Assembly: GCA_033853555.1 (NCBI GenBank)
Contig: JAWOLJ010000066.1
Coordinates: 22,044 to 86,043 of the forward strand
Direction: 5' to 3'
Length of the DNA stretch: 64,000 nucleotides
From: Myxococcota bacterium
Lineage (GTDB): Bacteria > Myxococcota_A > UBA9160
This document shows, piece after piece, positions 35,813 through 48,852 of this stretch; positions within the stretch are counted from its first letter, which is position 1, and every line of letters starts with the position of its first letter. The notes beneath the pieces are model-generated. The model made no database searches. It had not been told where the DNA came from and saw nothing but the letters and a program-made list of their open reading frames with translations. The translations under genes and the position numbers were made by a program.

Positions 35813-38089
35813 TCAGAGCGGCTCCACCCGCGCCGGCGTGCTCTTGTGCCAGGGCGTCCCCGCGAGCCAGTCCCGATCCTCGCTGCGCGTGAGCTCGTTC
35901 GGCGCGACGCCCGTCGCGACGCGCGCTCCGCTCGCGTCGGGAAAGTCGAGGCCGAGCCCGTTCGGAAGGGACACGTGCCCGGGCTGCATCCGCTCCGAGA
36001 CCTCGACCGGCACCTCGGCGCTGCCGCGCCGCGTGGTGAGGCGCACGCGGGCGCCGTCGGCCACGCCGAGGCGCTTCGCATCCTCGGGGCTGATGCGCAG
36101 CGCGCCGGCCCGGTCCTTCTTCCGCCAGTCCGGGTTGCGCAGGATGGTGTTGGCGGTGAAGGAGCGTCGCTCGCCGGCGGAGAGCAGGAACGGGAACTCC
36201 TCGCTCGGTCCGGGCGGCGGCTCGGTGGCAAGGCCGTCGAGCTCGTGGAAGAGCTCCGGCAGCGCGAGCTGGAGGCGGCCACCCGGCGTGCCGATCCGGG
36301 CGAAGCTCTCCTCCCACTCGTCCACCGAGAAGACGACCGCGCTGCGGCTCGCGAGGAGCGCGTCGAAGAGCGCGTCCGCCGCCTCCCCCGCCCCGCCCAC
36401 GAAGCCCGCGCGCGCGAGCGATCGCGCGTGCCGCTGCGCCGCGATCTGGCACAGCCCCCAGACCCCGGCGGCCTCCGCGAGTCCCTTCGGCAGGAGATCA
36501 CCGATCGCCCGGTAGAGCAGCACCGGCGCGATCGCGAGCAGGCGCGGGCTCTCGCCGACGAGCTCGAGGAAGCGGCTGCGGAAGGCCTGGCGACCGTCTC
36601 GCCATGCCGCTCGCAGCGCCGAAACGGCATCGGCGGGGAGCGCTCCCAACGCCTCCACCAGCCGCGCATGGAGCTCGGCCTCGGAGAAGAGCCCCGCCGG
36701 GGGATCCAGCAGCGCCCGGCGCAGGTGGAAGTGATTCCGTGGGAACTCGAAGTTGAAGAAGGTGGCCTCGGCCTTCTCGTACTGGCTCGCGACCGGCAGC
36801 ACGTAGTGGGCGAGCCGCGCGGTCTCGGTGAAGGCCACGTCGATCACCACCACCAGCTCGAGGGCGGCGAGGGCCTCGCGCATGCGCACGCCGTCGGCCA
36901 GCGAGTGGGCGGGATTCCCGCTCTCGACCAGGAGCGCGCGGAAGCGCTTCGGATGGTCGGTCAGGATCTCGTCGGGGATCACATTGCAGGGCGTGAGCCC
37001 GCCGATCACACGCGCGCCCGTCACCGGGGTGCGACGCTCGCCGCCGTCCTTCCCCACCGCGAGCGGCACGAGAGCGGTGGGCAGGTAGGCGGTGCCCGGC
37101 TTTCCGAAGTTGCCGGTCAGGAGGACCAGAAGCTTGTGGAGATAGGAGACCAGGGTCGAGTGGCGGTTCATCTGCACGCCCAGGTCTTCGAAGCTGGCGA
37201 CGCTCGAGGCCTCTGCGATGCGCCGCGCGGTGCGGCGCACCTGCTCCTCCGGCACCCCGCAGGTCACGCAATACTCCGCCACCGGGAGCGCCTCGAAGTG
37301 GGGCAGCACTCGGTCGAGCCCGTCGGCGTGGGCCGCGAGCCAGTCGCGAGCGATCCGCCCCTCCTGCACCAGCACGGCGAGGAGCGCAGCGAGCAGCCAG
37401 GCGTCGGTTCCGGGCTTCGCCTGGAGATGAACGTCGGCGATCTCGGCGGTCTCGCTGCGGCGCGGATCCACCACGATCAGGCAGCGCGCGGGATCCTTCG
37501 CGATCTCGCGCAGCGCGAGGCGTGCGCGGGGGATGCCGTGGGAGAGCCACGGGTTCTTGCCGAGGAAGAGCGCCACCTCGCAGTGCTCGAAGTCCGCTCG
37601 CGTGTAGCCGCCGATCATCCGGTCGGCCACCCAGAACTCGCCCGTCTTCTCCTGGGCGAGCGCGCTCGAGCGATGGATCGAGCCGAGCACGGAGCGCGTC
37701 GCGCGGCCGTAGGCCCCCGGCAGGTGGTTCCCCTGCCCGCCGCCCCCGTAGTAGAAGATGGACTCCCCGCCGAAGGCCTCCCGCACCGCCGCCAGACGCG
37801 CCGCCACCTCGCGGATCGCCGTCTCCCAGGCGATCTCCTCGAAGCTCCCGTCGCTGCGACGGCGCAGCGGCCGGGTCAGGCGGTGGGGCCCATTCTGGTA
37901 GAAGTCGAGCCGCGAGGGCTTCTCGCAGGCGTAGCCCCGGGAGGCGGGATGTGCGTCGTCGCCGCGCACGCGCAGGAGCGTCCGCCCCTCGGGCCCGCCG
38001 AGCTGAACCTCGATCCCGCAGTTGCACTCGCAGAGGATGCAGGCCGTGGACTTCCACTCGGAGGCGTGGGGGGCGGGGCTCTCGGCCAT
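35813..38089 (-). CDS. Molybdopterin-dependent oxidoreductase (formate-dehydrogenase-like MopB family)
   Basis: ...WKSTACILCECNCGIEVQL (N-terminal 4Fe-4S Cys motif), molybdopterin and MopB barrel domains, 758 aa. Confidence 0.85.
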   Translation of the reverse strand: MAESPAPHASEWKSTACILCECNCGIEVQLGGPEGRTLLRVRGDDAHPASRGYACEKPSRLDFYQNGPHRLTRPLRRRSDGSFEEIAWETAIREVAARLAAVREAFGGESIFYYGGGGQGNHLPGAYGRATRSVLGSIHRSSALAQEKTGEFWVADRMIGGYTRADFEHCEVALFLGKNPWLSHGIPRARLALREIAKDPARCLIVVDPRRSETAEIADVHLQAKPGTDAWLLAALLAVLVQEGRIARDWLAAHADGLDRVLPHFEALPVAEYCVTCGVPEEQVRRTARRIAEASSVASFEDLGVQMNRHSTLVSYLHKLLVLLTGNFGKPGTAYLPTALVPLAVGKDGGERRTPVTGARVIGGLTPCNVIPDEILTDHPKRFRALLVESGNPAHSLADGVRMREALAALELVVVIDVAFTETARLAHYVLPVASQYEKAEATFFNFEFPRNHFHLRRALLDPPAGLFSEAELHARLVEALGALPADAVSALRAAWRDGRQAFRSRFLELVGESPRLLAIAPVLLYRAIGDLLPKGLAEAAGVWGLCQIAAQRHARSLARAGFVGGAGEAADALFDALLASRSAVVFSVDEWEESFARIGTPGGRLQLALPELFHELDGLATEPPPGPSEEFPFLLSAGERRSFTANTILRNPDWRKKDRAGALRISPEDAKRLGVADGARVRLTTRRGSAEVPVEVSERMQPGHVSLPNGLGLDFPDASGARVATGVAPNELTRSEDRDWLAGTPWHKSTPARVEPL

Positions 38090-38130
38090 GGCAGTCTCCC
38101 GGTGGGCGCGAGCCGATGGGTAGCCGAGGT

Positions 38131-38165
38131 GGTTTCTTTACGCAACTAGTTTTCAAGCTAGACTC
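38131..38165 (+). promoter_or_regulatory. AT-rich divergent promoter region with palindrome AACTAGTT between the Mo-oxidoreductase and the HxlR regulator
   Basis: ggtttctttacgcAACTAGTTttcaagctagact; local GC drop in an about 72% GC background. Confidence 0.3.
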
Positions 38166-38170
38166 CGGGC

Positions 38171-38659
38171 ATGGGGCGGAAGCGCTTCTCCCACATGAAC
38201 TGCGGGATCGGCCAGGCGCTGGAGGTGCTCGGCGACTGGTGGACGCTGCTGATCGTGCGCGACGCCTTCTTCGGCGTGCGGCGCTTCGGCGACTTCGAGC
38301 GCAGCCTCGGCATCGCTAAGAACATCCTCACGGCGCGCCTCCAGCACCTGGTGGACCACGGGATCTTCGAGCGGGTGGACGTGGGCCACGAGGGGCATCG
38401 CTTCGAGTACCGGCTCACCGCGAAGGGCGAGGCGCTCCTCCCGGTGCTGACCACCCTGCGCGAGTGGTCGGACGAGTGGGTCTTCGGGCGCGGCCACGAG
38501 CCCGTGCTCGTGCAGGATCGGCGCACGGGGCGGCGCGTGCCGAGGCTCCGCGTGACCGACGCGGACGGCCGTCCGCTCTCACGGCGCGATGTCCGCGCGG
38601 TGCCGGGGCCCGGCGCGTCGAAGGACACGATCCGCCGGCTCCAGCCGCGCGGGAGCTGA
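38171..38659 (+). CDS. HxlR-family (MarR-like wHTH) transcriptional regulator
   Basis: ...CGIGQALEVLGDWWTLLIVRDAFFGVRRFGDFERSLGIAKNILTARLQHLVDHGIFER: canonical HxlR/YtcD motif. Confidence 0.8.
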   Translation: MGRKRFSHMNCGIGQALEVLGDWWTLLIVRDAFFGVRRFGDFERSLGIAKNILTARLQHLVDHGIFERVDVGHEGHRFEYRLTAKGEALLPVLTTLREWSDEWVFGRGHEPVLVQDRRTGRRVPRLRVTDADGRPLSRRDVRAVPGPGASKDTIRRLQPRGS

Positions 38660-38673
38660 TCCCTCGGCGCGCG

Positions 38674-39336
38674 TCAGCCGCGGCGAGCCGGCTCCGCGCC
38701 GGTGAGCTCGCGCACGAGCGTCGCCTCCAGGAGCGCGAGCTCACCCTCGGGCAGCCGCGCCCTGGGGCCGGCCAGCAGGAGCGACGCCGCGAGGCCCACC
38801 AGCACCGAGACGGTGTAGTGCTGGAGCAGGCGGTGGCGCGCCGGGGAGAGCGGCGCGTCGTGGAACAGCCGTCGCCACACCGCGTCGAAGGCGCGGAACA
38901 TCCGGGTCTGCCACGACGGCTCCCGGGCCGGATGCAGGTCCGTTCGACGCAAGTGGTCGAGCAGGATCTCGAAGGTCGAGGCGTACTCGCGACTCGCGAA
39001 GTGCTGCCACGCCCGCGCCACGAACAGGGACGCTCGCTCCGCGAGCCCGATTCCCTCCCTTGGCACGTCCGCCAGGCGCAGCTCGAAGCGGCGGAAGGAG
39101 TCCTCGAGCACCGCCATCAGGATGCCGTCCTTGTCGCCGAAGTGGTGCTGCACCGCACCCCAGGTGACGCCGGCGCGGCGGGTGATCTCGCTGGCGGTGG
39201 TGCGCTGGAAGCCCCGCTCGGCGATGCAGTCGATGGTGGCGGCGAGGATGCGCGCGCGCGTCTCCGCGGTGCGCTCGGCGTGGGAGCGCCGCGCGCGACG
39301 CCGCGTCGCAGGACGAACACGGATCGCCTGGGACAC
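38674..39336 (-). CDS. TetR/AcrR-family transcriptional regulator
   Basis: GTG 39336; ...RRSHAERTAETRARILAATIDCIAERGFQRTTASEITRRAGVTWGAVQHHFGDKDGIL (TetR HTH). Divergent from the aldA-cyp51 operon. Confidence 0.8.
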   Translation of the reverse strand: MSQAIRVRPATRRRARRSHAERTAETRARILAATIDCIAERGFQRTTASEITRRAGVTWGAVQHHFGDKDGILMAVLEDSFRRFELRLADVPREGIGLAERASLFVARAWQHFASREYASTFEILLDHLRRTDLHPAREPSWQTRMFRAFDAVWRRLFHDAPLSPARHRLLQHYTVSVLVGLAASLLLAGPRARLPEGELALLEATLVRELTGAEPARRG

Positions 39337-39385
39337 CGCTACTCCGAGCCGAGGCCGGCCACGCCGGCGCCGAGTGCCATCGCAC

Positions 39386-39434
39386 CAGGCTATCACGTTT
39401 GCATTGCGCTCGAAATGTAAATGGTGGTACAAGG
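39386..39434 (+). promoter_or_regulatory. Conserved AT-rich operator/promoter element, copy 1 (upstream of aldA-cyp51 operon)
   Basis: CAGGCTATCACGTTTGCATTGCGCTCGAAATGTAAATGGTGGTACAAGG: imperfect about 40-bp palindrome (CTAYCAC...GTGRTAG; TTTGCAT...ATGNAAA). About 42/49 identical to copy 2 at 46798-46848. Confidence 0.5.
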
Positions 39435-39514
39435 GATGCGCCGGGGCGGCGGCTGGCAGGCCTCCCCGATCCCCCGGGTCGGCCCCCCGATCCGCGAGAC
39501 GTGAGGATGCTCCC

Positions 39515-40993
39515 ATGGCACTCGCCGCGCTCGAGCCCGAGACCCGCAACCTGATCGACGGCCGGCTGGTGCCGGCCTCGAACGGCGCGACCTTCGAGAA
39601 CGTGAACCCGGCCACCGAGGAGGTGCTCGGGAGCTGCGCCGACGGCACGCGCGAGGACATGCTGTCGGCGATCGCGGCCGCCCGGCGCGCCTTCGACGAG
39701 ACCCGGTGGTCCACCGATGCCGTCTTTCGCAAGCGCTGCCTGCTCCAGATCGCCGACGCGCTCAAGGCGGCGCGCGAGAAGCTGCGCTCGATCGTGGTGC
39801 ACGAGGCCGGCTCGCCGGTCCTCCTCACCTACAGCGTCCAGTGTGACTCCACGATCGACCAGTTCGGCTACTGGGCCGAGCTCGCGGGGAGCTACGAGTA
39901 CGAGCGGCCGATGCGCGAGATCCGCTTCCTCGGGCAGCCGCAGCGCCGCCTGCTGCGACGAGAAGCCACCGGTGTGGTGGGAGCCATCACGCCCTGGAAC
40001 TTTCCGCTCTACCTGAATCTCGCGAAGCTCGGGCCGGCCCTCGCCGCCGGCAACACCGTCGTGCTGAAGCCGGCGCCGGACACGCCCTGGTCGGCCACCG
40101 CCCTGGGCCGCCTGATCGCCGAGCAGACCGAGATCCCGCCGGGCGTGGTGAACGTGGTCGCCTCGTCGGAGCACGCGGTGGGCGAGCTCCTGGCGAGCGA
40201 TCCGCGCGTCGATCTCGTGACCTTCACCGGCTCGACCGCCACCGGGCGGCGGGTCATGGAGTGCGCCTCGGCGACGGTGAAGCGCGTCTTCCTGGAGCTC
40301 GGCGGAAAGTCCGCGAACGTGATCCTCGACGACGCCGACTTTGCGAAGGCCCTCGGCGGCGCCGTCACGGTCTGCACTCACGGCGGACAGGGCTGCGCGC
40401 TCACCACGCGGCTGCTCCTGCCGCGTTCGCGCTACGCCGAGGGCATCGAGATCGTGAAGCGCGCCTTCGAGAGCTGGAGCTACGGAGACCCGACGGATCC
40501 GCGGAACCTCCAGGGGCCCCAGGTGAGCCGGCGCCAGCAGGAGCGGGTGCTCGCCTACATCGAGAAAGGGAAGCGCGAGGGCGCGCGCCTCCTGACGGGC
40601 GGCGGCCGACCTTCGCGCCTGCCGAAGGGCTTCTACGTGGAGCCGACGCTCTTCGCCGACGTCGATCCGGACTCCACGATCGCGCAGGAGGAGATCTTCG
40701 GGCCGGTCCTGGCGGTGATCCCCTTCGACGGCGACGACGACGCGGTGCGGATCGCGAACCGCTCGATCTACGGCCTCTCGGGCGCGGTCACCAGCGCGAG
40801 CGAGGAGCGCGCCCTCGGCGTGGCGCGGCGCATCCGCAGCGGGACGCTCTCGGTGAACGGCGGGATGTGGTTCGACGTCGACACGCCCTTCGGCGGCTAC
40901 CGCCAGAGCGGAGTCGGACGCGAGAACGGGCTCCTCGGCTTCGAGGAGTACCTGGAGACCAAGGTGATCGCGCTCCCCGGGAGCCCGCGATGA
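39515..40993 (+). CDS. NAD(P)-dependent aldehyde dehydrogenase
   Basis: ...ITPWNFPLYLNLAKLGPALAAGNTVVLKPA..., FLELGGKSANVI (Glu active site), ...GGQGCALTTR (Cys). ATG 39515 with GAGGA upstream. Confidence 0.9.
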   Translation: MALAALEPETRNLIDGRLVPASNGATFENVNPATEEVLGSCADGTREDMLSAIAAARRAFDETRWSTDAVFRKRCLLQIADALKAAREKLRSIVVHEAGSPVLLTYSVQCDSTIDQFGYWAELAGSYEYERPMREIRFLGQPQRRLLRREATGVVGAITPWNFPLYLNLAKLGPALAAGNTVVLKPAPDTPWSATALGRLIAEQTEIPPGVVNVVASSEHAVGELLASDPRVDLVTFTGSTATGRRVMECASATVKRVFLELGGKSANVILDDADFAKALGGAVTVCTHGGQGCALTTRLLLPRSRYAEGIEIVKRAFESWSYGDPTDPRNLQGPQVSRRQQERVLAYIEKGKREGARLLTGGGRPSRLPKGFYVEPTLFADVDPDSTIAQEEIFGPVLAVIPFDGDDDAVRIANRSIYGLSGAVTSASEERALGVARRIRSGTLSVNGGMWFDVDTPFGGYRQSGVGRENGLLGFEEYLETKVIALPGSPR

Positions 40994-42396
40994 CGACGGC
41001 GGACGTCGCGATGGGAACGGCCACGGGAAGCGCGACGCAGCGGGGCGGCGCCGCGCCGCCGCGGGTCTCCGGGGGCCTGCCGTGGCTCGGGCACCTGCTC
41101 GAGCTCCGGCGCCAGCCGATCGAGCTGCTGAGCCGCGCGCGCGCCGAGTGCGGCGAGGTGGCGGAGCTGCGCCTGGCGCGCCTGCCACTGGTGATGCTCT
41201 ACGGCGAGGAGGCCCAGGAAGCCTTCTTTCGCGCGCCCGACGAGCAGCTCGACCAGGCCGCCGCCTATCCCTTCATGAAGCCGATCTTCGGCGAGGGCGT
41301 GGTGTTCGACGCCCCGCCCGAACGGCGCAAGGAGGCGCTGCGCAACCAGTCGCTGCGCGACAAGCAGATGCGCGGGCACGCGGAGGTGATCGCGGCGGAG
41401 ACCGAGCGCATGGTGAGTCGCTTCGGCGCTGGAGGAGAGATCGATCTCCTGGACTTCTTCGCCGAGCTCACGATCTACACCTCGAGCGCGTGCCTGATCG
41501 GGAAGCCCTTCCGCGAGGAGCTGACCCCCGAGTTCTCGAGGGTCTACCACGATCTCGAGCGCGGCACCGACGCCATTGCCTACGTGAACGCGCATCTCCC
41601 GATCCCGTCCTTCCGCAAGCGCGACCGGGCGCGCAGGCGGCTGGTCGAGCTGGTCACCGAGATCATGCAGGCGCGCGCCCGCTCCGGAGAGAGCAAGGGA
41701 GACCTGCTGGACGTGCTGATGCGCGTGCGCCTCGAAGACGGTCGCCCGCGCTTCTCGGCCGACGAGATCACGGGGATGTTCATCTCCATGATGTTCGCGG
41801 GCCACCACACCACCTCGGGGACCGCGGCCTGGACCCTGATCGAGCTGCTGCGAAACCCCGGCCAGATGGCCGGCGTGACGGCCGAGCTGGATCGCCTCTT
41901 CGCCGACGGCGGCGAGGTCTCCTACCACGCGCTGCGCGAGATCCCCCGGCTCGAGAATGCGATCAAGGAGACGCTGCGGCTCCATCCCCCGCTGATCCTG
42001 CTGCTGCGCAAGGTGGCCGAGGACTTCCACTACAAGGGCTGGACCATCGCGGCGGGAAAGCTCGTCGGGACCTCACCCGCCGTCTCGAACCGGATCCCGG
42101 AGTACTTCCCCGATCCCGATCGCTTCGATCCCGGGCGCTACCTGGAGGGGCGCGAGGAGGACGTGCGACATCCCTTCGGCTGGATTCCCTTCGGAGCGGG
42201 ACGGCATCGCTGCGTGGGCGCAGCCTTCGCGATGATCCAGCTCAAGGCGATCTTCAGCGTGCTGCTGCGGCGCTTCGAGCTCGAGCTGGCGCAGCCGCCC
42301 GCGAGCTACCGCAACGACCACTCCAAGATGGTGGTGCAGCTCGCCCAGCCGTGCCGCGTGCGCTACCGCCGGCGCGCCGCCCGAGCGGGCGCATGA
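40990..42396 (+). CDS. cyp51: Cytochrome P450 CYP51, sterol 14-alpha-demethylase
   Basis: Near-colinear with M. tuberculosis CYP51 (from memory): AYPFMKPIFGEGVVFDAPPERRKE, EIDLLDFFAELTIYTSSACLIGK, RFSADEITGMFISMMFAGHHTTSGTAAWTLIEL, ETLRLHPPLILLLR, WIPFGAGRHRCVGAAFAMIQLKAIFSVLLRRFELELAQPPASYRNDHSKMVVQLAQPCRVRYRRR. Confidence 0.9.
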   Translation: MTTADVAMGTATGSATQRGGAAPPRVSGGLPWLGHLLELRRQPIELLSRARAECGEVAELRLARLPLVMLYGEEAQEAFFRAPDEQLDQAAAYPFMKPIFGEGVVFDAPPERRKEALRNQSLRDKQMRGHAEVIAAETERMVSRFGAGGEIDLLDFFAELTIYTSSACLIGKPFREELTPEFSRVYHDLERGTDAIAYVNAHLPIPSFRKRDRARRRLVELVTEIMQARARSGESKGDLLDVLMRVRLEDGRPRFSADEITGMFISMMFAGHHTTSGTAAWTLIELLRNPGQMAGVTAELDRLFADGGEVSYHALREIPRLENAIKETLRLHPPLILLLRKVAEDFHYKGWTIAAGKLVGTSPAVSNRIPEYFPDPDRFDPGRYLEGREEDVRHPFGWIPFGAGRHRCVGAAFAMIQLKAIFSVLLRRFELELAQPPASYRNDHSKMVVQLAQPCRVRYRRRAARAGA

Positions 42397-42590
42397 AGAT
42401 CCGGGTCGACCTCGATCTGTGTCAGGGGCACGGCGTCTGCGCCGAGGAGGCCCCGGAGGTGTTCGCGCTGGACGAGCAGAGATCCAAGGTGGTGCTGCGC
42501 GACCCGAGCCCGCCGGAGGCGCAGCGCGCGCGGGTGAAGGCCGCCGTCCGCTACTGCCCCACGCATGCCCTCGCGCTGCTCGAGGACTGA
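42393..42590 (+). CDS. 3Fe-4S/4Fe-4S ferredoxin, P450 redox partner (Rv0763c-like)
   Basis: MKIRVDLDLCQGHGVCAEEAPEVFALDEQ...AAVRYCPTHALALLED: CxxHxxC...CP ferredoxin. ATGA overlap with cyp51 stop. Confidence 0.85.
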   Translation: MKIRVDLDLCQGHGVCAEEAPEVFALDEQRSKVVLRDPSPPEAQRARVKAAVRYCPTHALALLED

Positions 42591-42617
42591 ACCGCCCACC
42601 CCTCACCCGGAGGCCCC

Positions 42618-43184
42618 ATGCCCGCCTTCCCCCGTGCCGAGCTCGAAGAGATGATCCGCCGCTTCGTGGCCGTGAACGACGAGTGCGGCCAGAGCGGGAG
42701 CTGGGACGCGCTCGGCCGCTTCTATGCCGAGGACGCGATCTACTCCTGGAACCTCGGCCCGAAGTTCGAGTTCGTGGCGCGCGGCCGCGAGGAGATCCGC
42801 AAGTGGGTGCTCGGCACCGAGATGGCGGGCCTCGACAAGTGGGTCTACCCGTACGTGCGTACGCTGGTGGACGACCAGAAGGGCGAGGTGATCGGCATCT
42901 GGCGGCAGATCGCCCCGGTGAAGGGCGAGGACGGCAAGCCCATCGAGATCGCCGGCACCGGCGGCTCCTGGTTCCGCTACGCCGGCAACTGGCAGTGGAG
43001 CTGGCAGCGGGACTTCTTCGATCACGGGAACGCGGGCGCGGTCTTCCTGGAGCTGCTGCAGAAGGGGCGTCTCTCGCCGGCGATGCAGGAGCGCCTGAAG
43101 CGCGGCTCGAAGCAGCCGGGCTGGGTGCCGCGCGAGAGCTTCGACTGGTACGCCAGCATCCAGGAGCGCGAGGACCGCGGGTGA
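42618..43184 (+). CDS. NTF2-like/SnoaL-like family protein
   Basis: ...EEMIRRFVAVNDECGQSGSWDALGRFYAEDAIYSWNLGPKFEFVARGREEIRKWVLG: cone-shaped alpha+beta barrel pattern (ketosteroid-isomerase-like fold superfamily). Confidence 0.65.
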   Translation: MPAFPRAELEEMIRRFVAVNDECGQSGSWDALGRFYAEDAIYSWNLGPKFEFVARGREEIRKWVLGTEMAGLDKWVYPYVRTLVDDQKGEVIGIWRQIAPVKGEDGKPIEIAGTGGSWFRYAGNWQWSWQRDFFDHGNAGAVFLELLQKGRLSPAMQERLKRGSKQPGWVPRESFDWYASIQEREDRG

Positions 43185-44035
43185 GCTCGGCCGGAAGACC
43201 GCTCGCCGCGGCGACGCTCGCGGGCGTCGCGCGCGCCGACGGGGCCCGCTGGTTCGCCGCCGATCCGGGCAAGGCCTGGGGCGAGAAGTTCTTCCTGCTC
43301 TACACGCCGGTCTGGATGACCGGCATGGCGCTCATGATGAAGAGCGGCGCGGCGGGGCGCTGGGGCGATCGGGCCCAGCTCGCCGCCCACCTCGCGCTCT
43401 GGCTTCCGCTCCTGCTGCTCCCGCCCCTGCTCCACTCCGAGCGCGCGCTCGGCCGCAGCTTCACGGAGAGCTACGCCTTCAAGGCGTTTCTCTGGCTCGG
43501 CGTCTTCTCCTTCGTCGGGAGCTACTTCGGGAGCGAGTACTTCTTCGACGTCCTCGGGATGGTCTACCGCTTCGCCAATCTCCACTGGACCATGGACTCG
43601 GCGCTCCTCGGATCGGGCGAGCAGCACGTCCCGCTCATCATGTACTTCTCCGCGCACTTCTACTTCGTGAGCTACCACACCGCCGCGGTGGTGGTGATGC
43701 GTCGCGTGCGGAGCTCGCGGCTCTTCGTGCATCCGCTGGTCTGGGCACTGGTGATCCTCGGCTGCGCCTACGGCTTCGCCTGGGCCGAGACCTTCTTCAT
43801 GACCGACCCCTCGATCGCGGCGCAGTTCACCTACCGCGACGTGCCGCGCATGCTGCGCTGGGGCTCGCTCGTCTACGCGCTCTACTTCGTGGTGAGCTTC
43901 CCCATGTTCTACCGGCTGGACGAGGCTCCCGGCGAGCGCTGGCCCCTGCGCCGCGTCGTCCTGGAGGCCCTCGCGGCCGGCATGCTCGTGCTCTTCCTGC
44001 TCGACTTCGCGACCCACGCGATCGGGCGGCTCTGA
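43181..44035 (+). CDS. Seven-TM membrane protein resembling cycloeucalenol cycloisomerase (CPI1) family
   Basis: GTG 43181, GTGA overlap. Motifs WGEKFFLLYTPVWMTG, FKAFLWLGVFSFVGSYFGSEYFFDVLGMVYRF, VSYHTAAVVVMRR, LVYALYFVVSFPMFYRLDE. As I recall them, plant CPI1 has WGELFFLFYTP..., VFSYVGNYFWTHYFFKVLGA..., FYAIYFIVSFPMFFRMDE. No His boxes. Confidence 0.7.
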   Translation: MSSAGRPLAAATLAGVARADGARWFAADPGKAWGEKFFLLYTPVWMTGMALMMKSGAAGRWGDRAQLAAHLALWLPLLLLPPLLHSERALGRSFTESYAFKAFLWLGVFSFVGSYFGSEYFFDVLGMVYRFANLHWTMDSALLGSGEQHVPLIMYFSAHFYFVSYHTAAVVVMRRVRSSRLFVHPLVWALVILGCAYGFAWAETFFMTDPSIAAQFTYRDVPRMLRWGSLVYALYFVVSFPMFYRLDEAPGERWPLRRVVLEALAAGMLVLFLLDFATHAIGRL

Positions 44036-44059
44036 GTGGCGAGTCGGGAGGAGAGGACC

Positions 44060-44863
44060 GTGCGCGACATCCTTGGCTACGCGGGGAAGCGGGTGGTGGT
44101 GAGCGGCGCGGCGTCCGGCATGGGCGCCGCCACGGCCCGGACGCTGGTGGATCTCGGCGCCGAGGTCCATGCCCTCGACCTGAAGCCGATCCAGGTCCCG
44201 GTGGCCCGGGCGCTGGAGGTGGACCTGCGTCGCCGCGAGTCGATCGACGCGGCGCTGGCGCATCTTCCCGAGCGCGTGGACGCCCTCTTCAACTGCGCCG
44301 GGCTCCCCGGCGCACCGTTCTCGAACCTCGACACCATGCTGGTGAACTTCGTGGGCCTGCGGCACCTGACCGAGGGCGTGCTGTCGCGCCTGCCATCGGG
44401 TGGAGCGGTCGCGAGCATCACCTCGGTCGCCGGCATGGGCTGGCGCAAGAACCTCGAGAACGTCAGGGCGCTCTGCGGCACCAAGGACTTCGACGAGGCG
44501 CGCGCCTGGTGCGAGGCGCATCCCAAGGAGGCCAACGGCTATCTCTTCTCCAAGCAGTGCATCATCTGGTACACGATGCAGCGCGCGGTCGAGCTGGTGG
44601 CTCGCGGGATCCGGATGAACTGCATCTCTCCCTCGCCCACCGACACGCCCATGCTCCCGGCGTTCCACGCCCAGGTGAATCGCGAGTTCATCGACAAGCA
44701 CTTCCTGGCCCCGATCGGACGCAACGCCACCCCGGAGGAGATGGCCGAGCCCTTGGTGCTCCTGAACTCGAACGCCGCGCGCTTCGTCTCGGGCGTGAAC
44801 CTGTTCGTGGACTGGGGCTATCTGGCCGAGCTCGAGGTCGGGGCGCGGCCCGCGCTGCTCTGA
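44060..44863 (+). CDS. Short-chain dehydrogenase/reductase (SDR), atypical short N-terminus
   Basis: GTG 44060 after AGGAG (alternative GTG 44036 directly abutting CPI stop). ...GKRVVVSGAASGMGAATARTLVDLGAEV..., NCAG..., YLFSKQCIIWYT (YxxxK), ...ISPSPTDTPML. Confidence 0.8.
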   Translation: MRDILGYAGKRVVVSGAASGMGAATARTLVDLGAEVHALDLKPIQVPVARALEVDLRRRESIDAALAHLPERVDALFNCAGLPGAPFSNLDTMLVNFVGLRHLTEGVLSRLPSGGAVASITSVAGMGWRKNLENVRALCGTKDFDEARAWCEAHPKEANGYLFSKQCIIWYTMQRAVELVARGIRMNCISPSPTDTPMLPAFHAQVNREFIDKHFLAPIGRNATPEEMAEPLVLLNSNAARFVSGVNLFVDWGYLAELEVGARPALL

Positions 44864-44876
44864 GCCGACGCCGGCC

Positions 44877-45251
44877 CTAGCGCCCCGGCGCGCTCTTGTC
44901 GCGCTCGGCGCGGAGCGCGCGCACGACCTGGCTCGCCACGGCCGCCACCGGCCAGCCCGCATAGTGCGCCACGTGGAGGATCAGCTCGTCGATCTCGACG
45001 TCGCTGAGCTGCTTCTGCCGCATCGCCGCGCCGAGATGGAGCTTCAGCGTCGCCTCGTGTCCGAGCTGCATCAGCACCACCAGCGTTGCGATGCGGCGCT
45101 CCTTCAAGCCGAGCCCGGGTCGGGCCCACACGTCGGCGAAGAGGTGGTCCACGGTGCTGTCCATGAAGGGCTCGCTCGGGATGGCCGGTGGTCGGAAGCC
45201 CATCACCCGGTCGAACCACTCGAGGCCCTTCGCGCGCTGCTCCTCGCTCAT
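44877..45251 (-). CDS. Carboxymuconolactone decarboxylase (CMD/AhpD-like) family protein
   Basis: MSEEQRAKGLEWFDRVMGFRPP...DHLFADVWARPGLGLKERRIATLVVLMQLGHEATLKLHLGAAMRQKQLSDVEIDELILHVAHYAGWP: CMD domain. ATGA overlap with upstream gene. Confidence 0.75.
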   Translation of the reverse strand: MSEEQRAKGLEWFDRVMGFRPPAIPSEPFMDSTVDHLFADVWARPGLGLKERRIATLVVLMQLGHEATLKLHLGAAMRQKQLSDVEIDELILHVAHYAGWPVAAVASQVVRALRAERDKSAPGR

Positions 45252-45916
45252 CGGCTTCCACCACGCTTCTCGACCGGTCCGAACTCGAAGCTCGCGGCGG
45301 TCGAGAGCCGCGTGATCTTCGTGATGGCCGCCTCCTCCGCGGGCGGCGCATCGTCCTCGATCGTCACCTCCCAGTGACAGACGGGCTTGCGGTCCTTGGG
45401 ATCGCGCGGGGGCCGGTGCACCGGGCGGCACTTCGCGCGCGGGTTCACCGCCTGCATCGTGGCGTCGAAGGTCGGATCCTCGATGTGATGGCACATCGAG
45501 ACCACTCGCGCCTCGCCCCAGGGCTCGACGTCGGCGAGGGCTCCGCAGTGGTCGAGCCAGAAGTATCCCTTCTTCGGGCTCACCACCTCGTAGTGCACGT
45601 CCATGTACTGGTGGGGAAAGCCCGGATCGAGCTGCAGCGACTTGAAGATCGAGGCCACGTCGTCGCCCTCGATCTTCATCGCCTTGCGGATGCGCTGGGT
45701 GTAGACCGGCGAGGCGCCGCGCCACTCCTCGATCGCGAGCTCCTCCATCGCCTTCGCCCCGAAGCGCTGCAGGATGGCGGGCATGATGGCGCGATCGAGC
45801 AGGTGGGCGGCGAGCATGAGCTCGCGGCACAGCGTGACCAGCGCCTCCTTCGAGAAGTCCTCGAGACGCAGGTCCGGATCGAATTCCCCGCTGTAGTCCT
45901 CGCGTTCTTCGAACAC
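45248..45916 (-). CDS. Hypothetical Cys/His-rich protein (222 aa), translationally coupled to the CMD gene
   Basis: MFEEREDYSGEFDPDLRLEDF...YFWLDHCGALAD...VSMCHHIEDPTF...KPVCHWEV; possible metal-binding; no family recognised. Confidence 0.55.
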   Translation of the reverse strand: MFEEREDYSGEFDPDLRLEDFSKEALVTLCRELMLAAHLLDRAIMPAILQRFGAKAMEELAIEEWRGASPVYTQRIRKAMKIEGDDVASIFKSLQLDPGFPHQYMDVHYEVVSPKKGYFWLDHCGALADVEPWGEARVVSMCHHIEDPTFDATMQAVNPRAKCRPVHRPPRDPKDRKPVCHWEVTIEDDAPPAEEAAITKITRLSTAASFEFGPVEKRGGSR

Positions 45917-45929
45917 CCTCGCTCCTCCT

Positions 45930-46793
45930 CTAGCGGCGCCGCGGATCCTCGAGCCCGTACACGCGGGCCATCAGCTGCGAGGCCAGCGCGGTGCCGGGCA
46001 GCGCGATGCCGCACTGCCGCGCCAGCGCCAGCGTCGCGGCGAGATCCTTCTCGGCGATCTCGACGAAGCCGCGCAGCAGCCCCTGGAAGCCCTCGCTGGT
46101 GCGGCTCGCCTCGGGAGCCTTGTGGAGCGCCAGGAACGCGCGCATCGGCTCGGTCAGGTTGCCGTTCGAGCCCGTCACCTCCTCCAGCACCGCCGGGGAG
46201 AGGCCCGCGGCGCGGGCCAGCAGGCTCGCCTCGTAGGCGGAGATCCACGCGAGGTAGGTCATCAGGTTGTTGCAGAGCTTCGTCTTGCAGCCGCTCCCGA
46301 GCGGGCCGGTGTGAACGACCTTCTTGGCAAAGCAGTCGAGCAGCGGGCGCGCACGCTCCAGCGCCGCGGCCGCGCCGCCGGCCATCACCGTGAGCGTGCC
46401 CTGGGCCGCGCCGGCCGCGCCGCCCGTGATGCAGGCATCGATCACCTCGACGCCGCAGCGCTGCGCCTCGACCGCCACCTCCTCCACCGTCGCCGGCTGC
46501 ACCGTGCTGTGGATCGCGACGACGGTGCCCCGCGCCGCGCCGGCGAGGACCCCGTCGGCGCCGCGCATCACGCTGCGCACGTCCGCGTCGTCGCGCACGC
46601 AGACGCCGATCGCGTCGCTCGCCGCCGCCACCTCGCGGGGTGTCGCGGCGCCTCGCGCGCCGGCGGCCTCGAGCTGGCGCACGCGCTCGGGGAGCGCGTC
46701 GCAGACGGTCGTGGGGAGGCCAGCCGCCACCAGCCGCTTCGCCATCGGCAAGCCGATGTTCCCCAGCCCGATGAAGCCCGCGCGGATCCCCAT
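45930..46793 (-). CDS. NAD(P)-binding 3-hydroxyisobutyrate/6-phosphogluconate dehydrogenase-like oxidoreductase
   Basis: MGIRAGFIGLGNIGLPMAKRLVAAG (Rossmann GxGxxG) ...GTLTVMAGG...ALERARPLLDCFAKKVVHTGPLGSGCKTKL: HIBADH family. Confidence 0.8.
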   Translation of the reverse strand: MGIRAGFIGLGNIGLPMAKRLVAAGLPTTVCDALPERVRQLEAAGARGAATPREVAAASDAIGVCVRDDADVRSVMRGADGVLAGAARGTVVAIHSTVQPATVEEVAVEAQRCGVEVIDACITGGAAGAAQGTLTVMAGGAAAALERARPLLDCFAKKVVHTGPLGSGCKTKLCNNLMTYLAWISAYEASLLARAAGLSPAVLEEVTGSNGNLTEPMRAFLALHKAPEASRTSEGFQGLLRGFVEIAEKDLAATLALARQCGIALPGTALASQLMARVYGLEDPRRR

Positions 46794-46797
46794 GTGC

Positions 46798-46848
46798 CCA
46801 GGCTACCACATTTGCATTGCGCTCGTTATGGAAATGGTGATAGCGTGG
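46798..46848 (+). promoter_or_regulatory. Conserved AT-rich operator/promoter element, copy 2 (between HIBADH-like gene and second P450)
   Basis: CCAGGCTACCACATTTGCATTGCGCTCGTTATGGAAATGGTGATAGCGTGG; see copy 1. Confidence 0.5.
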
Positions 46849-46855
46849 TCGGCCG

Positions 46856-48070
46856 ATGGACGCCGCCGCCCACCCGCAGGCGCCGCTCGAGTTCGACCCC
46901 TACGCCTACGCGGTGCACGAGGATCCCTATCCCTTCTACGCGCGCCTGCGCGCCGAGGCGCCGCTCTATCGCAACGAGCGGCTCGGCTTCTGGGCGCTCT
47001 CGCGCCACGCGGACGTGCTGGCGGCGTTCCGCGACTGGGAGCACCTCTCCAACCGTCACGGCGTGTCGCTCGACGTCGACGCCTTCCACGAGCGGGCCGA
47101 CACCACCATGTCGTTCCTGGCGATGGATCCGCCACGCCACGACCGGCTGCGGGCCCTGGTCTCGCGCGGCTTCACGCCGCGGCGCGTGGCGGAGCTGGAG
47201 CCCCACGTGCGCGCCCTCTCCAGGCGCTATCTCGAGGCGTTCGTGGAGCGAGGAAGCTGCGACTTCATCGGTGACTTCGCGGGCAAGCTTCCGATGGACG
47301 TGGTCAGCGAGATGCTCGGTGTACCGTCCGACGATCGCGCGACGCTCCGCGAGTGGGCGGATCTGGTGGTGCACCGCGAGCCCGGGGTGAACGGGCTCCC
47401 GCCGGCGGCCGCGCAGTCGGCGCTGCGCATGCTGCACTACTTCACCGAGATGCTCGCGGACCGCCGCAAGCAGCCGCGCGACGATCTGACCGGTGCGCTC
47501 ATCGCCGCTGAGCTCGAGGGCGATCGATTGACCGACCACGAGATCATCGGCTTCCTCTTCCTGATGGTGGTGGCGGGAAACGAGACCACCACCAAGCTCC
47601 TCGGCAACGCCCTGTACTGGCTGTGGCGGCATCCCTCGGAGCGCGAGCGGCTGCGCGCCGATCCAGCCCTGGTCCCGCGCTGGGTCGAGGAGACGCTGCG
47701 CTACGACAACTCGACCCAGGCGCTCGCGCGCCTCGCCGCCGCCGACGTCGAGCTCCACGGCCAGAAGGTCCGCGCCGGCGATCGCGTGGTGCTGCTGGTG
47801 GGCTCGGCCAACCGCGACGAGCGCGCCTTCGTCCATCCGGATCGCTACGACCTGCTGCGCGACACCAGCGCCTCCCTCTCGTTCGGACAGGGCGTCCACT
47901 TCTGCCTCGGCGCCTCGCTCGCACGGCTCGAGGCCCGGGTGTCGCTGGACGAGGTCTGGCGGCACATCCCCGACTACGAGATCGACGCGGAGAGCGCGGT
48001 CCGGGTCCACTCGGTGAACGTGCGCGGCTTCGCGAAGCTTCCGCTGGTGTTCGGTCGATCGGTCCGATGA
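46856..48070 (+). CDS. Cytochrome P450 (second, non-CYP51; CYP123/125-like class)
   Basis: ...FLFLMVVAGNETTTKLLGNAL (I-helix AGxETT), ETLRYD (ExxR), FGQGVHFCLGASLARLE (haem Cys loop). Confidence 0.9.
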   Translation: MDAAAHPQAPLEFDPYAYAVHEDPYPFYARLRAEAPLYRNERLGFWALSRHADVLAAFRDWEHLSNRHGVSLDVDAFHERADTTMSFLAMDPPRHDRLRALVSRGFTPRRVAELEPHVRALSRRYLEAFVERGSCDFIGDFAGKLPMDVVSEMLGVPSDDRATLREWADLVVHREPGVNGLPPAAAQSALRMLHYFTEMLADRRKQPRDDLTGALIAAELEGDRLTDHEIIGFLFLMVVAGNETTTKLLGNALYWLWRHPSERERLRADPALVPRWVEETLRYDNSTQALARLAAADVELHGQKVRAGDRVVLLVGSANRDERAFVHPDRYDLLRDTSASLSFGQGVHFCLGASLARLEARVSLDEVWRHIPDYEIDAESAVRVHSVNVRGFAKLPLVFGRSVR

Positions 48071-48852
48071 GCGCCGTGCGCGTCGCGATCGTGACGGGCG
48101 CCTCCTCGGGGATCGGCGCGGCGATCGCGCGCGCGCTCGGCGCCCGCGGCTTCGTGGTGGCGCTCGGCGCCCGGCGCACGGAGGAGCTCGCCGCGGTGGC
48201 GAGGCAGGTGGAGGGGGGCGGCGGCCGGGCGGTGGTGCTGCAAGTGGACCTCTCCGATACCGCCTCGCTCGACGCGTTCTTCGACGCCGCCGAGGCCGCC
48301 CTGGGCCCGGTCGACGTTCTGGTGAACAACGCCGGGATCTGCGTGCCCGGCCTGCTCCACGAGATCGATCCGACCGCCGTGCAGCGCGAGCTCGCGGTGA
48401 ATCTCCTGGCGCCGGCGCTCCTGGCGCGACGTGCGATCCGGTCGCTCCTCTCCCGCGATGTGCGGGGAGACCTGATCTGGATCTCGTCCGAGAACGTGGT
48501 GGCGCCACGGCCCTTCCAGCCGGGCTACACCGCCAGCAAGTGGGGTCTCGAGGGCCTCGCCCGCACGCTTCGCCTCGAGCTCGCCGGGACCGGCATTCGC
48601 TCCACCATCGTGCGCCCCGGCCCCACCTTCCCCACCGACTTCGCCCGCGGCTGGGACCCCGCGCTGGTGAAGCGCCTCCTCGAAACCTGGAACGCGCTCG
48701 GCCTCCAGCGCCACCTCCAATGGCTCCCGGCCGAGAGCGTCGCGGAGGCGGTGGCGGCGGTGGTCACCGCACCGCCGGGTACGCACTTCGACATCGTCGC
48801 GCTCGGCCCCGAATCTCCCCCCGAGCTGAGGATCGTCGGGACCGCGCGCTGA
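48067..48852 (+). CDS. Short-chain dehydrogenase/reductase (SDR)
   Basis: MSAVRVAIVTGASSGIGAAIARAL (TGxxxGIG), NNAG, ...YTASKWGLEGLARTLRLEL (YxxxK). ATGA overlap with P450 stop. Confidence 0.85.
   Translation: MSAVRVAIVTGASSGIGAAIARALGARGFVVALGARRTEELAAVARQVEGGGGRAVVLQVDLSDTASLDAFFDAAEAALGPVDVLVNNAGICVPGLLHEIDPTAVQRELAVNLLAPALLARRAIRSLLSRDVRGDLIWISSENVVAPRPFQPGYTASKWGLEGLARTLRLELAGTGIRSTIVRPGPTFPTDFARGWDPALVKRLLETWNALGLQRHLQWLPAESVAEAVAAVVTAPPGTHFDIVALGPESPPELRIVGTAR

What the first reader, a model, noticed from the sequence alone, without database searches (positions are those of the whole stretch)
46798..46848. Copy 2 of the conserved operator, upstream of the second P450-SDR operon and the divergent HIBADH/Cys-His/CMD operon
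See copy 1. Presence of the same element here extends the putative regulon to the second P450 and to the three divergently transcribed genes. Their M. tuberculosis counterparts (Rv0770, Rv0771) also neighbour cyp51.
Basis: seen in the sequence. Interest (0 to 1): 0.6.

Follow-up and report, generated by a model that had tools for sequence, protein, structure and literature searches.

The report
TetR operator inside a two-way promoter
The 51-base element is a real, widely conserved control site: a 28-bp palindrome, most likely bound by the TetR-family repressor encoded 7 kb away, lying between two back-to-back promoters that drive a CYP51/CYP123-type oxidoreductase gene cluster in an uncultured myxobacterium. 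It is an ordinary kind of switch, though this particular repressor-operator pair did not turn up in the literature I searched.

Summary
Window 46798-46848 fills the 62-nt gap between the HIBADH-like operon (-) and the P450-SDR operon (+). It matches a second copy at 39385-39435 in 41 of 51 positions (39 of the first 45).

The core is a 28-bp palindrome, consensus CATTTACAT-N10-ATGTAAATG. A PWM finds exactly two sites in the 64 kb, at 45.6 and 45.1 bits; the best shuffle reaches 15.9.

Copy 1 lies about 60 nt upstream of a TetR-family gene (38674-39336, -). In 73 of 80 related Myxococcota loci, anchored on that TetR, the same palindrome lies in the TetR's own promoter region. The usual position is the one copy 2 occupies, between P450b and HIBADH.

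A motif-anchored metagenome scan found cluster genes next to the palindrome in 37 of about 42 high-GC contigs.

The flanks carry conserved TAnnnT hexamers, often 6-9 nt before the start codon. The element therefore looks like a bidirectional, partly leaderless promoter plus operator.

The enzymes are homologues of M. tuberculosis Rv0762c-Rv0771 (CYP51 63%, CYP123 56%, AldA 57%). The regulator is not an HpoR/Rv0767c orthologue, and the operator differs from the HpoR box.

Verdict: new member of a known kind; moderate interest. Binding, inducer and stoichiometry are untested.

The parts
46798..46848 (.). Copy 2: the whole conserved promoter-operator element in the 62-nt gap between the HIBADH-like gene and P450b.
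46809..46836 (.). 28-bp palindromic operator core CATTTGCAT-TGCGCTCGTT-ATGGAAATG. Half-sites are 46810-46817 and 46828-46835. The centre carries TTGC-type -35-like bases.
   Evidence: PWM 45.1 bits; position-wise conservation in 75 sites
46800..46808 (-). Putative extended -10 (TGgTAGCCT on the minus strand) for the HIBADH/unknown/CMD operon. It ends 6 nt before the A of the HIBADH ATG (46793), which fits a leaderless mRNA.
   Evidence: TAnnnT at this offset in 39 of 39 HIBADH-side cases, 27 with TGn, 17 with a start codon 5-9 nt downstream. Inferred, not mapped.
46838..46846 (+). Putative extended -10 (TGaTAGCGT) for the P450b-SDR2 operon, 9 nt before the P450b ATG at 46856.
   Evidence: TAnnnT at the mirror offset in 36 of 47 P450b-side cases. 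Inferred.
39385..39435 (.). Copy 1 of the same element, between the TetR gene and the AldA-CYP51 operon. Core 39396-39423; half-sites 39397-39404 and 39415-39422; minus-strand -10 TAGCCT at 39387-39392.
   Evidence: 45.6 bits
38674..39336 (-). TetR-family regulator, 220 aa, GTG start, GGAG Shine-Dalgarno. This is the proposed cognate repressor, transcribed from the copy-1 promoter.
   Evidence: Pfam TetR_N 4.5e-13; identical 220-aa NCBI protein P0001; AF2 model pLDDT 86, TetR fold; a site in its own promoter region in 72 related loci
39339..39380 (-). 13-codon ORF MALGAGVAGLGSE* beginning 6 nt after the copy-1 -10. It resembles an HIBADH N-terminus and is probably a relic of the duplication that created copy 1.
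   Evidence: 21 of 43 nt, p about 0.016; 8 of 13 residues shared with the L002 HIBADH start
39515..44863 (+). Target operon 1: AldA (Rv0768-type) 39515-40993, CYP51 40990-42396, ferredoxin 42393-42590, SnoaL-like 42618-43184, 284-aa membrane protein 43181-44035, SDR 44036-44863.
44877..46793 (-). Target operon 2: HIBADH-like 45930-46793, 222-aa protein with no family 45248-45916, CMD 44877-45251.
46856..48852 (+). Target operon 3: P450b (CYP123-like) 46856-48070 and SDR 48067-48852.

Best explanation
The element is a compact bidirectional promoter with an embedded TetR-family operator.

The 28-bp palindrome (consensus CATTTACAT-N10-ATGTAAATG; here CATTTGCAT-TGCGCTCGTT-ATGGAAATG, 46809-46836) is most likely bound by the TetR-family protein encoded at 38674-39336.

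Each half-site lies in the spacer between a -35-like TTGC in the palindrome centre and a TAnnnT -10 just outside the palindrome. Bound repressor would therefore block both divergent promoters at once: leftward HIBADH/unknown/CMD and rightward P450b-SDR.

The second copy does the same for the TetR gene itself (autoregulation) and for the AldA-CYP51-ferredoxin-SnoaL-membrane protein-SDR operon. All four units would then form one regulon, released when an unknown ligand binds the repressor's C-terminal domain.

Copy 2 occupies the usual, probably ancestral position. Copy 1 is a duplicate made when the cluster was split.

Shown: the conservation, the positions and the gene associations. Inferred: the identity of the binding protein, the promoter elements, leaderless transcription, repression, and the ligand.
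For: 1. The two copies score 45.6 and 45.1 bits and are the only sites in the window; shuffles reach at most 15.9.

2. A TetR_N protein is encoded next to copy 1, and its model has the TetR fold.

3. Among 80 loci fetched by TetR homology (52-80% identity), 73 carry the palindrome at 24 bits or more. In 72 of those the site lies upstream of the TetR: directly upstream in 30, and at the head of a co-directional operon ending in TetR in 42. Four of the seven without a site are contigs cut before the expected position, and one has a weak 17-bit site.

4. In the reverse test, an exact-pattern scan of metagenome contigs returned 120 loci. 37 of about 42 contigs with G+C of 0.6 or more had cluster genes beside the site. 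The other matching contigs, nearly all below 0.6 G+C, had none beside it.

5. Where the cluster is fragmented, each fragment keeps its own copy. L001, L003 and L004 have one upstream of the paralogue pair of the 222-aa gene, L057 has three sites, and this window has two.

6. The recognition-helix region of the TetR (GVTWGAVQHHFGDKDG) is invariant or nearly so across 29 homologues, matching the near-invariant operator core.

7. TAnnnT occurs at a fixed offset on both flanks: 39/39, 23/28 and 36/47 cases against about 2% by chance. TGn precedes it in 27 of 39 HIBADH-side cases. A start codon follows 5-9 nt later in 17/39, 12/28 and 12/47 cases.

8. Changes at mirror positions are not compensatory (162 left-only, 146 right-only, 43 non-complementary, 18 complementary). 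This is as expected for a protein-binding site.
Against: No binding, expression or transcription-start data exist for this uncultured organism.

The generic sigma-70 consensus scan finds no promoter in either intergenic region, so the -35/-10 reading rests on conserved position only.

Two TetR-homologue loci with enough upstream sequence (L045, L070) have no site.

Part of the inner palindrome conservation (TTGC/GCAA) could reflect promoter elements rather than repressor contacts.

In the window both half-sites are imperfect (ATTTGCAT versus ATTTCCAT), and the repeat finder with a 6-nt seed does not call the inverted repeat.
Confidence: 0.8

Rival explanations
1. The palindrome is an operator, but for a different, unlinked regulator. 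The adjacent TetR would recognise something else or have another role.
For: No experiment links protein and site. In metagenome locus L154 the site lies beside a different TetR-type gene (TetR_C_13) that does not match this TetR. L045 and L070 have the TetR without a site.
Against: TetR is the only regulator gene consistently present. It is transcribed from the palindrome-bearing promoter in 72 loci. The neighbouring HxlR gene in the window is absent from the related loci except one distant hit in L027.
Confidence: 0.1
2. The conserved sequence is only a symmetric pair of divergent promoters (-35, spacer and -10 elements) with no repressor.
For: TAnnnT flanks and TTGC in the centre sit with 17-nt spacing, consistent with two back-to-back promoters.
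Against: The most conserved positions lie in the promoter spacers, where sigma-70 promoters are not sequence-constrained: ATTTACAT and ATGTAAAT, with C11 and G26 at 0.99 and T9 at 0.99. They are more conserved than the putative -10 and -35. The element always co-occurs with a TetR gene.
Confidence: 0.06
3. The palindrome acts as an RNA hairpin, such as a 5' UTR regulatory stem or a terminator.
For: The 51 nt fold into a hairpin of -19 kcal/mol, z = -2.97.
Against: Any palindrome folds. There is no excess of compensatory changes (18 complementary against 43 non-complementary double changes and 308 one-sided changes). There is no Rfam match and no terminator-like site. In many loci the start codon lies 5-9 nt after the flanking TAnnnT, which would put the palindrome upstream of the transcript.
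Confidence: 0.02
4. It is a dispersed repeat, such as a REP or MITE-like palindromic element, with no regulatory role.
For: It occurs as two copies of a palindromic AT-rich sequence in a GC-rich genome.
Against: There are only two copies in 64 kb, both in divergent promoter gaps of one gene cluster. The element occupies the same syntenic position in loci whose proteins have diverged to 52-80% identity. No terminal or target-duplication features were seen.
Confidence: 0.02

Closest known systems
HpoR (Rv0767c / MSMEG_5860) and the hpoR operon of mycobacteria (PMC5909442)
   Same: A TetR-family repressor is encoded inside, and autoregulated with, a homologous redox gene cluster. Window proteins match the M. 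tuberculosis ones at AldA/Rv0768 57%, CYP51/Rv0764c 63%, ferredoxin 48%, Rv0762c 47%, CYP123/Rv0766c 56%, Rv0765c 38%, Rv0770 36% and Rv0771 33%. The repressor sits in a divergent promoter region. The Mtb block Rv0762c-Rv0771 changes expression together (PMC10470581).
   Different: The regulators are not orthologous. BLASTP gives no hit at E <= 1e-3, and hhalign matches only 59 HTH columns at 24% identity with probability 33%. HpoR recognises two separate 12-bp boxes, GGACANNTGTCC, 158 bp apart in a 201-nt gap (L201 7164 and 7322). Here there is one 28-bp palindrome in a 62-nt gap. No HpoR box occurs in the window, and this PWM has no site in L201. Responsiveness to c-di-GMP is unknown here.
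Two-dimer TetR operators: QacR IR1 (28 bp), CprB, CgmR, FadR, DarR (reviewed in PMC6018408)
   Same: The operator length is 28 bp, and conservation extends over about 12 bp per half with a variable centre. The best HTH-level sequence matches include ScbR/CprB-type receptors. Foldseek neighbours include B. subtilis FadR and DarR, which bind as dimers of dimers.
   Different: The sequence is unrelated to IR1. Stoichiometry is untested. Part of the inner conservation may be promoter -35 elements. Structural neighbours are only generic (TM about 0.6, 16-22% identity).
TtgR/AcrR-type arrangement: one operator between the repressor gene and a divergent target promoter (PMC4589371)
   Same: A single operator covers two divergent promoters, with autoregulation. 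The TtgR HTH region matches at E about 2e-7. From memory only, the TtgR operator also has TTTACA-N12-TGTAAG geometry. I could not verify that sequence in the papers held.
   Different: The targets are oxidoreductases and P450s, not an efflux pump. The C-terminal domains are unrelated. The operator resemblance is a recollection, not a test.
KstR / KstR2 steroid-catabolism TetR repressors of actinobacteria
   Same: These are TetR repressors of P450-containing lipid or steroid oxidation genes. KstR is among the Foldseek neighbours.
   Different: The NCBIfam KstR model scores 22 bits against a cut-off of 280. The KstR motifs (TnnAACnnGTTnnA and AnCAAGnnCTTGnT, from my own knowledge) are shorter and unrelated.

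Membership tests
TetR-family repressor with palindromic operator | The regulator has an N-terminal TetR_N helix-turn-helix and an all-helical C-terminal domain. | tested here: met
   Pfam PF00440 at 4.5e-13. The AF2 model has nine helices and pLDDT 86. All top Foldseek hits are TetR-family proteins.
TetR-family repressor with palindromic operator | An inverted-repeat DNA site conserved in sequence across orthologous loci. | tested here: met
   The consensus is CATTTACAT-N10-ATGTAAATG over 75 sites. Mirror positions change independently.
TetR-family repressor with palindromic operator | The site lies in the regulator's own promoter region or a divergent target promoter. | tested here: met
   In 30 loci it is directly upstream of TetR, and in 42 at the head of an operon ending in TetR. 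Window copy 1 lies about 60 nt upstream of the TetR start.
TetR-family repressor with palindromic operator | The protein binds the site and is released by a ligand. | not testable with these tools
   This needs EMSA or footprinting and ligand screening.
HpoR (Rv0767c) regulon | The regulator is orthologous to Rv0767c / MSMEG_5860. | tested here: not met
   There is no BLASTP hit. hhalign matches the HTH only, with probability 33%.
HpoR (Rv0767c) regulon | The 12-bp box (G/A)GACANNTGTCC lies upstream of the operon (PMC5909442). | tested here: not met
   The box occurs twice in Mtb locus L201 and not at all in the window.
HpoR (Rv0767c) regulon | The target genes are homologous: aldA, cyp51, fdx, cyp123, SDRs, Rv0770 and Rv0771. 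| tested here: met
   Identity is 33-63% over full lengths. TIGR04284 aldehy_Rv0768 scores 714 bits, just below its cut-off of 775. Mtb CYP51 1e9x matches at E 1e-184.
HpoR (Rv0767c) regulon | DNA binding is modulated by c-di-GMP. | not testable with these tools
   This is a biochemical property.
QacR-type two-dimer operator | An operator of about 28 bp with an extended centre. | tested here: met
   The conserved core spans 28 bp.
QacR-type two-dimer operator | Two dimers are bound cooperatively per operator. | not testable with these tools
   This needs ITC, SEC-MALS or a structure.
Structured RNA element | Compensatory base changes keep the stem, or the sequence matches a known RNA family. 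| tested here: not met
   There are 18 complementary against 43 non-complementary double changes. No Rfam match has E below 0.1.
KstR | The protein reaches the KstR equivalog model score. | tested here: not met
   NF033703 scores 22 bits against a cut-off of 280.

The most novel reading that the evidence does not exclude
The 51-bp element may be a self-contained, portable regulatory cassette: two leaderless, extended -10 promoters back to back, sharing one 28-bp operator bound by two TetR dimers. On this reading it is copied along whenever the CYP51/CYP123 cluster is split, which keeps the regulon intact. The cluster itself would be an ancient or horizontally shared pathway of Mycobacteria and uncultured Myxococcota that was rewired to a non-orthologous TetR with an unrelated operator. 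The myxobacterial version, with its extra conserved genes of unknown family, could then help identify the still unknown substrate of mycobacterial CYP51/CYP123.
Probability: 0.4. Interest if true: 0.5.

Novelty: new member of a known kind. Interest (0 to 1): 0.35.

Why it matters
The physiological role of the mycobacterial cyp51-cyp123-aldA cluster (Rv0762c-Rv0771) is still unknown. M. tuberculosis carries CYP51 but makes no sterols (PMC7947880).

The same enzyme set is conserved in many uncultured Myxococcota. There it forms a cleanly delimited regulon marked by an easily recognised 28-bp operator. This gives a comparative handle in three ways:
- The operator marks which extra genes travel with the pathway. 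These include a highly conserved 222-aa protein and a 284-aa membrane protein, neither with a family assignment, and in some genomes a DapB/DAP-dehydrogenase-like enzyme and an amidohydrolase.
- It is an example of regulator displacement: the same pathway is controlled by a different TetR.
- It provides a defined repressor-operator pair that could be tested for its ligand.

For transcription biology, it is a neat natural example of one operator controlling two overlapping, apparently leaderless divergent promoters within 62 bp.

Tried and rejected
1. I first took the CAT at 39378-39380 as the TetR start. It is out of frame, and the true start is the GTG at 39336. The CAT instead begins a 13-codon relic ORF.

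2. HxlR (38162-38659) as the cognate regulator was rejected, because it is not conserved in the related loci.

3. Orthology with HpoR/Rv0767c was rejected after fetching the Mtb locus.

4. An RNA hairpin, riboswitch or terminator was rejected.

5. The generic sigma-70 scan found nothing. The promoter reading therefore relies on positional conservation.

6. A sequence search of the PDB with the TetR gave only HTH-level hits. Foldseek gave only generic TetR neighbours, so no ligand could be inferred.

7. I tried to verify the remembered TtgR operator sequence in four papers and failed. That resemblance is kept only as an unverified lead.

8. The repeat finder with a 6-nt seed does not report the inverted repeat in either window copy, because both half-sites carry mismatches. 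The palindrome is evident only from the family consensus.

Full report
**1. What is there**

The window is 72.5% G+C. Positions 46798-46848 read CCAGGCTACCACATTTGCATTGCGCTCGTTATGGAAATGGTGATAGCGTGG. They fill the 62-nt gap between the ATG of a HIBADH-like gene (45930-46793, minus strand) and the ATG of a P450 gene (46856-48070, plus strand).

The repeat finder recovered the other copy at about 39385-39435 (family D4). In register the two share 41 of 51 positions, and 39 of the first 45. Both are among only six stretches below 50% G+C in the window. A 34-nt probe allowing 3 mismatches has no expected chance matches.

**2. Gene map**

Frame analysis and Pfam/NCBIfam scans give this order:

| Coordinates | Strand | Gene or element |
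|---|---|---|
| 35813-38089 | - | molybdopterin oxidoreductase |
| 38162-38659 | + | HxlR |
| 38674-39336 | - | TetR-family regulator |
| 39385-39435 | . | copy 1 |
| 39515-40993 | + | AldA (closest model TIGR04284 'aldehy_Rv0768', 714 bits) |
| 40990-42396 | + | P450a |
| 42393-42590 | + | ferredoxin |
| 42618-43184 | + | SnoaL-like protein |
| 43181-44035 | + | 284-aa membrane protein, no family |
| 44036-44863 | + | SDR |
| 44877-45251 | - | CMD |
| 45248-45916 | - | 222-aa protein, no family |
| 45930-46793 | - | HIBADH-like |
| 46798-46848 | . | copy 2 |
| 46856-48070 | + | P450b |
| 48067-48852 | + | SDR |

The TetR gene is 220 aa with a GTG start, identical to NCBI protein P0001. An ATG I first took for its start (39380) is out of frame.

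P450a is a close homologue of M. tuberculosis CYP51 (PDB 1e9x, 617 bits, E 1e-184).

**3. Related loci anchored on the TetR**

TetR homologues are abundant in Myxococcota and 'Deltaproteobacteria' MAGs. I aligned 29 of them and fetched 80 genomic loci with this TetR on the plus strand, at 52-80% identity.

A Hamming scan with the copy-2 core, followed by an iterated symmetric PWM, showed the same palindrome in most loci. The consensus is CATTTACATTGCGCGCGCAATGTAAATG.

- The window has exactly two sites at or above 10 bits, scoring 45.6 and 45.1. In 200 shuffles the maximum was 15.9.
- 73 of the 80 loci carry a site of at least 24 bits.
- In 72 of these the site lies upstream of the TetR: directly upstream in 30, and at the head of a co-directional operon (HIBADH, sometimes the 222-aa gene, sometimes CMD, then TetR) in 42.
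- Of the seven loci without a site, four contigs end before the expected position and one has a weak 17-bit site. L045 and L070 are true exceptions.

The commonest arrangement has the site between P450b (with SDR, AldA, CYP51, ferredoxin and SnoaL behind it) on one side and HIBADH-...-TetR on the other (26 loci). This is the position of copy 2. Copy 2 is therefore at the usual, probably ancestral place.

In the window the TetR gene and the AldA-CYP51 block have been separated from it and carry a duplicate, copy 1. Other fragmented clusters behave the same way. L001, L003 and L004 have an extra site upstream of a relocated pair of the 222-aa gene, and L057 has three sites.

Next to copy 1, on the TetR side, is a 13-codon ORF, MALGAGVAGLGSE*. 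It starts exactly where HIBADH starts next to copy 2, and it resembles HIBADH N-termini (8 of 13 residues with L002; 21 of 43 nt with the window's HIBADH, p about 0.016). This is modest support for a duplication that included the first HIBADH codons.

**4. The reverse test, anchored on the motif**

I ran an exact-pattern scan of metagenome contigs with ATTTVCATN7GCAATGBAAAT. tblastn with the window's proteins found cluster genes beside the site in 37 loci. That is 37 of about 42 contigs with G+C of 0.6 or more.

The other matching contigs, nearly all below 0.6 G+C, had no cluster gene beside the site. These are the expected chance matches of an AT-rich pattern.

Some of the high-GC exceptions place the site next to a DapB_N/DAP_DH_C-type dehydrogenase and an amidohydrolase (L101, L185, L169). 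These may be additional regulon members in other genomes.

**5. Anatomy of the element**

The unsymmetrised profile of 75 sites shows a 28-bp core. Its outer halves are nearly invariant: ATTTACAT and ATGTAAAT, with C11 and G26 at 0.99. The TetR/HIBADH-proximal inner part (TGCAA) is better conserved than its mirror.

Mirror positions change independently: 162 left-only changes, 146 right-only, 43 non-complementary double changes and 18 complementary ones. That is the signature of a protein-binding site and not of an RNA stem. Rfam gives nothing, and no terminator-like site is found. The predicted hairpin is simply what any palindrome gives.

A TAnnnT hexamer lies immediately outside the core on both sides at a fixed offset:

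| Side | TAnnnT present | Start codon 5-9 nt later |
|---|---|---|
| HIBADH | 39 of 39 (27 preceded by TGn) | 17 of 39 |
| TetR | 23 of 28 | 12 of 28 |
| P450b | 36 of 47 | 12 of 47 |

Chance expectation for the hexamer is about 2%.

In the window:
- TGgTAGCCT (minus strand, 46800-46808) ends 6 nt before the A of the HIBADH ATG (46793).
- TGaTAGCGT (46838-46846) lies 9 nt before the P450b ATG.
- Seventeen nucleotides upstream of each hexamer lies TTGC in the palindrome centre.

I read this as two back-to-back promoters whose -35 regions abut in the centre and whose spacers contain the two half-sites. Several of the mRNAs would be leaderless.

This reading is an inference. The strict sigma-70 consensus scan reports no promoter in either gap, and no transcription starts are available.

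**6. The regulator**

The AF2 model built on the 29-sequence alignment is confident (pLDDT 86) and shows a nine-helix TetR fold. Foldseek neighbours are generic TetR proteins: B. subtilis FadR, DarR, KstR, FasR and Rv0078, at TM about 0.6 and 16-22% identity. No ligand can be inferred from them.

The recognition-helix region is invariant or nearly so among homologues, in keeping with the conserved operator.

The operator is 28 bp long, with about 12 conserved bp per half. This resembles the two-dimer class of TetR operators (QacR, CprB, FadR, DarR; PMC6018408) more than the 15-bp one-dimer class. Part of the inner conservation may be promoter sequence, however, and stoichiometry is untested. 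I put the two-dimer mode at about 0.4.

**7. Comparison with the known system**

I reconstructed the Mtb CYP51 sequence from the PDB alignment, found its protein cluster (P0123), and fetched the M. tuberculosis locus (L201).

Window proteins match the Mtb cluster as follows:

| Window protein | Mtb counterpart | Identity |
|---|---|---|
| AldA | Rv0768 | 57% |
| CYP51 (P450a) | Rv0764c | 63% |
| ferredoxin | Rv0763c | 48% |
| SnoaL-like | Rv0762c | 47% |
| P450b | CYP123, Rv0766c | 56% |
| SDR (48067-48852) | Rv0765c | 38% |
| HIBADH-like | Rv0770 | 36% |
| CMD | Rv0771 | 33% |

The window's TetR, in contrast, has no BLASTP hit to Rv0767c (HpoR). Profile comparison matches only 59 HTH columns at 24% identity, with probability 33%.

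HpoR binds (G/A)GACANNTGTCC (PMC5909442). Two such boxes are present in L201, at 7164 and 7322, and none in the window. Conversely, this PWM scores at most 1.6 bits in L201.

The enzyme cluster is thus shared between the two phyla, while the TetR and its operator are not homologous. In Mtb the block Rv0762c-Rv0771 changes expression together (PMC10470581), and its function is unknown (PMC7947880).

**8. Verdict**

- The probable repressor is identified as the TetR at 38674-39336.
- The element is a promoter pair plus an operator, not an operator alone.
- The parallel with Mtb applies to the enzymes and not to the regulator.

In kind it is ordinary: a TetR operator in a divergent, autoregulated promoter. 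This TetR subfamily and its operator did not appear in the literature I searched. I rate it as a new member of a known kind, of moderate interest.

Noticed in passing
window 39339-39380 (-): A 13-codon ORF, MALGAGVAGLGSE*, begins 6 nt after the copy-1 -10-like hexamer and stops 2 nt before the TetR GTG. Its last codons contain the TetR Shine-Dalgarno GGAG. It looks like a relic of an HIBADH 5' end carried along when the element was duplicated, and it might now serve as a leaderless upstream ORF coupled to TetR translation.
   Followed up: partly
window 45248-45916 (-): This 222-aa protein has no Pfam or NCBIfam family. It is nevertheless the best conserved protein of the cluster: 86-90% identity in L007, L009, L011, L013 and L015, where its neighbours are 66-84%. 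In other genomes it occurs as a tandem paralogue pair with its own copy of the operator (L001, L003, L004). There is no counterpart in the Mtb cluster.
   Followed up: partly
window 43181-44035 (+): A 284-aa protein, apparently multi-pass membrane, has no family hit. It is conserved at 60-65% in L022, L040, L042 and L055, at the end of the CYP51 operon. It is absent from the Mtb cluster.
   Followed up: no
L101 813-838; L185 3847-3872; L169 3702-3727: In other high-GC metagenome contigs the same palindrome lies upstream of a DapB_N/DAP_DH_C-type dehydrogenase, and in L185 next to an Amidohydro_2 protein. These may be additional regulon members.
   Followed up: partly
L096 4779-4804; L197 25-50: A longer palindrome, GTAATGCATTTGCAT...ATGCAAATGCATTAC, shares the half-site. 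In L096 it lies near pantoate ligase and PepSY_TM genes; L197 was not annotated. It is probably the site of a different regulator, or chance.
   Followed up: no
window 38114-38174: This AT-rich gap lies between the divergent molybdopterin oxidoreductase (35813-38089, -) and the HxlR-type regulator (38162-38659, +). It is a likely separate HxlR-controlled promoter region, unrelated to the TetR element.
   Followed up: no
window 40990-40993, 42393-42396, 43181-44035 start, 45248-45251, 48067-48070: Adjacent genes in the operons overlap by 4 nt (ATGA or GTGA type) at five junctions. This suggests translational coupling: AldA/CYP51, CYP51/ferredoxin, SnoaL/membrane protein, 222-aa protein/CMD and P450b/SDR (and the gene coordinates).
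   Followed up: no
L201 7322-7333: In M. tuberculosis the second HpoR box, GGACATGTGTCC, overlaps the called start codon of Rv0767c (7328). The repressor's own start would then sit inside its operator, an analogous but non-homologous layout.
   Followed up: no
L154 2482-2507 and 2638-3237: In one metagenome contig the palindrome next to P450b is adjacent to a different TetR-type gene (TetR_C_13 domain) that does not match the window's TetR in tblastn.
   Followed up: no
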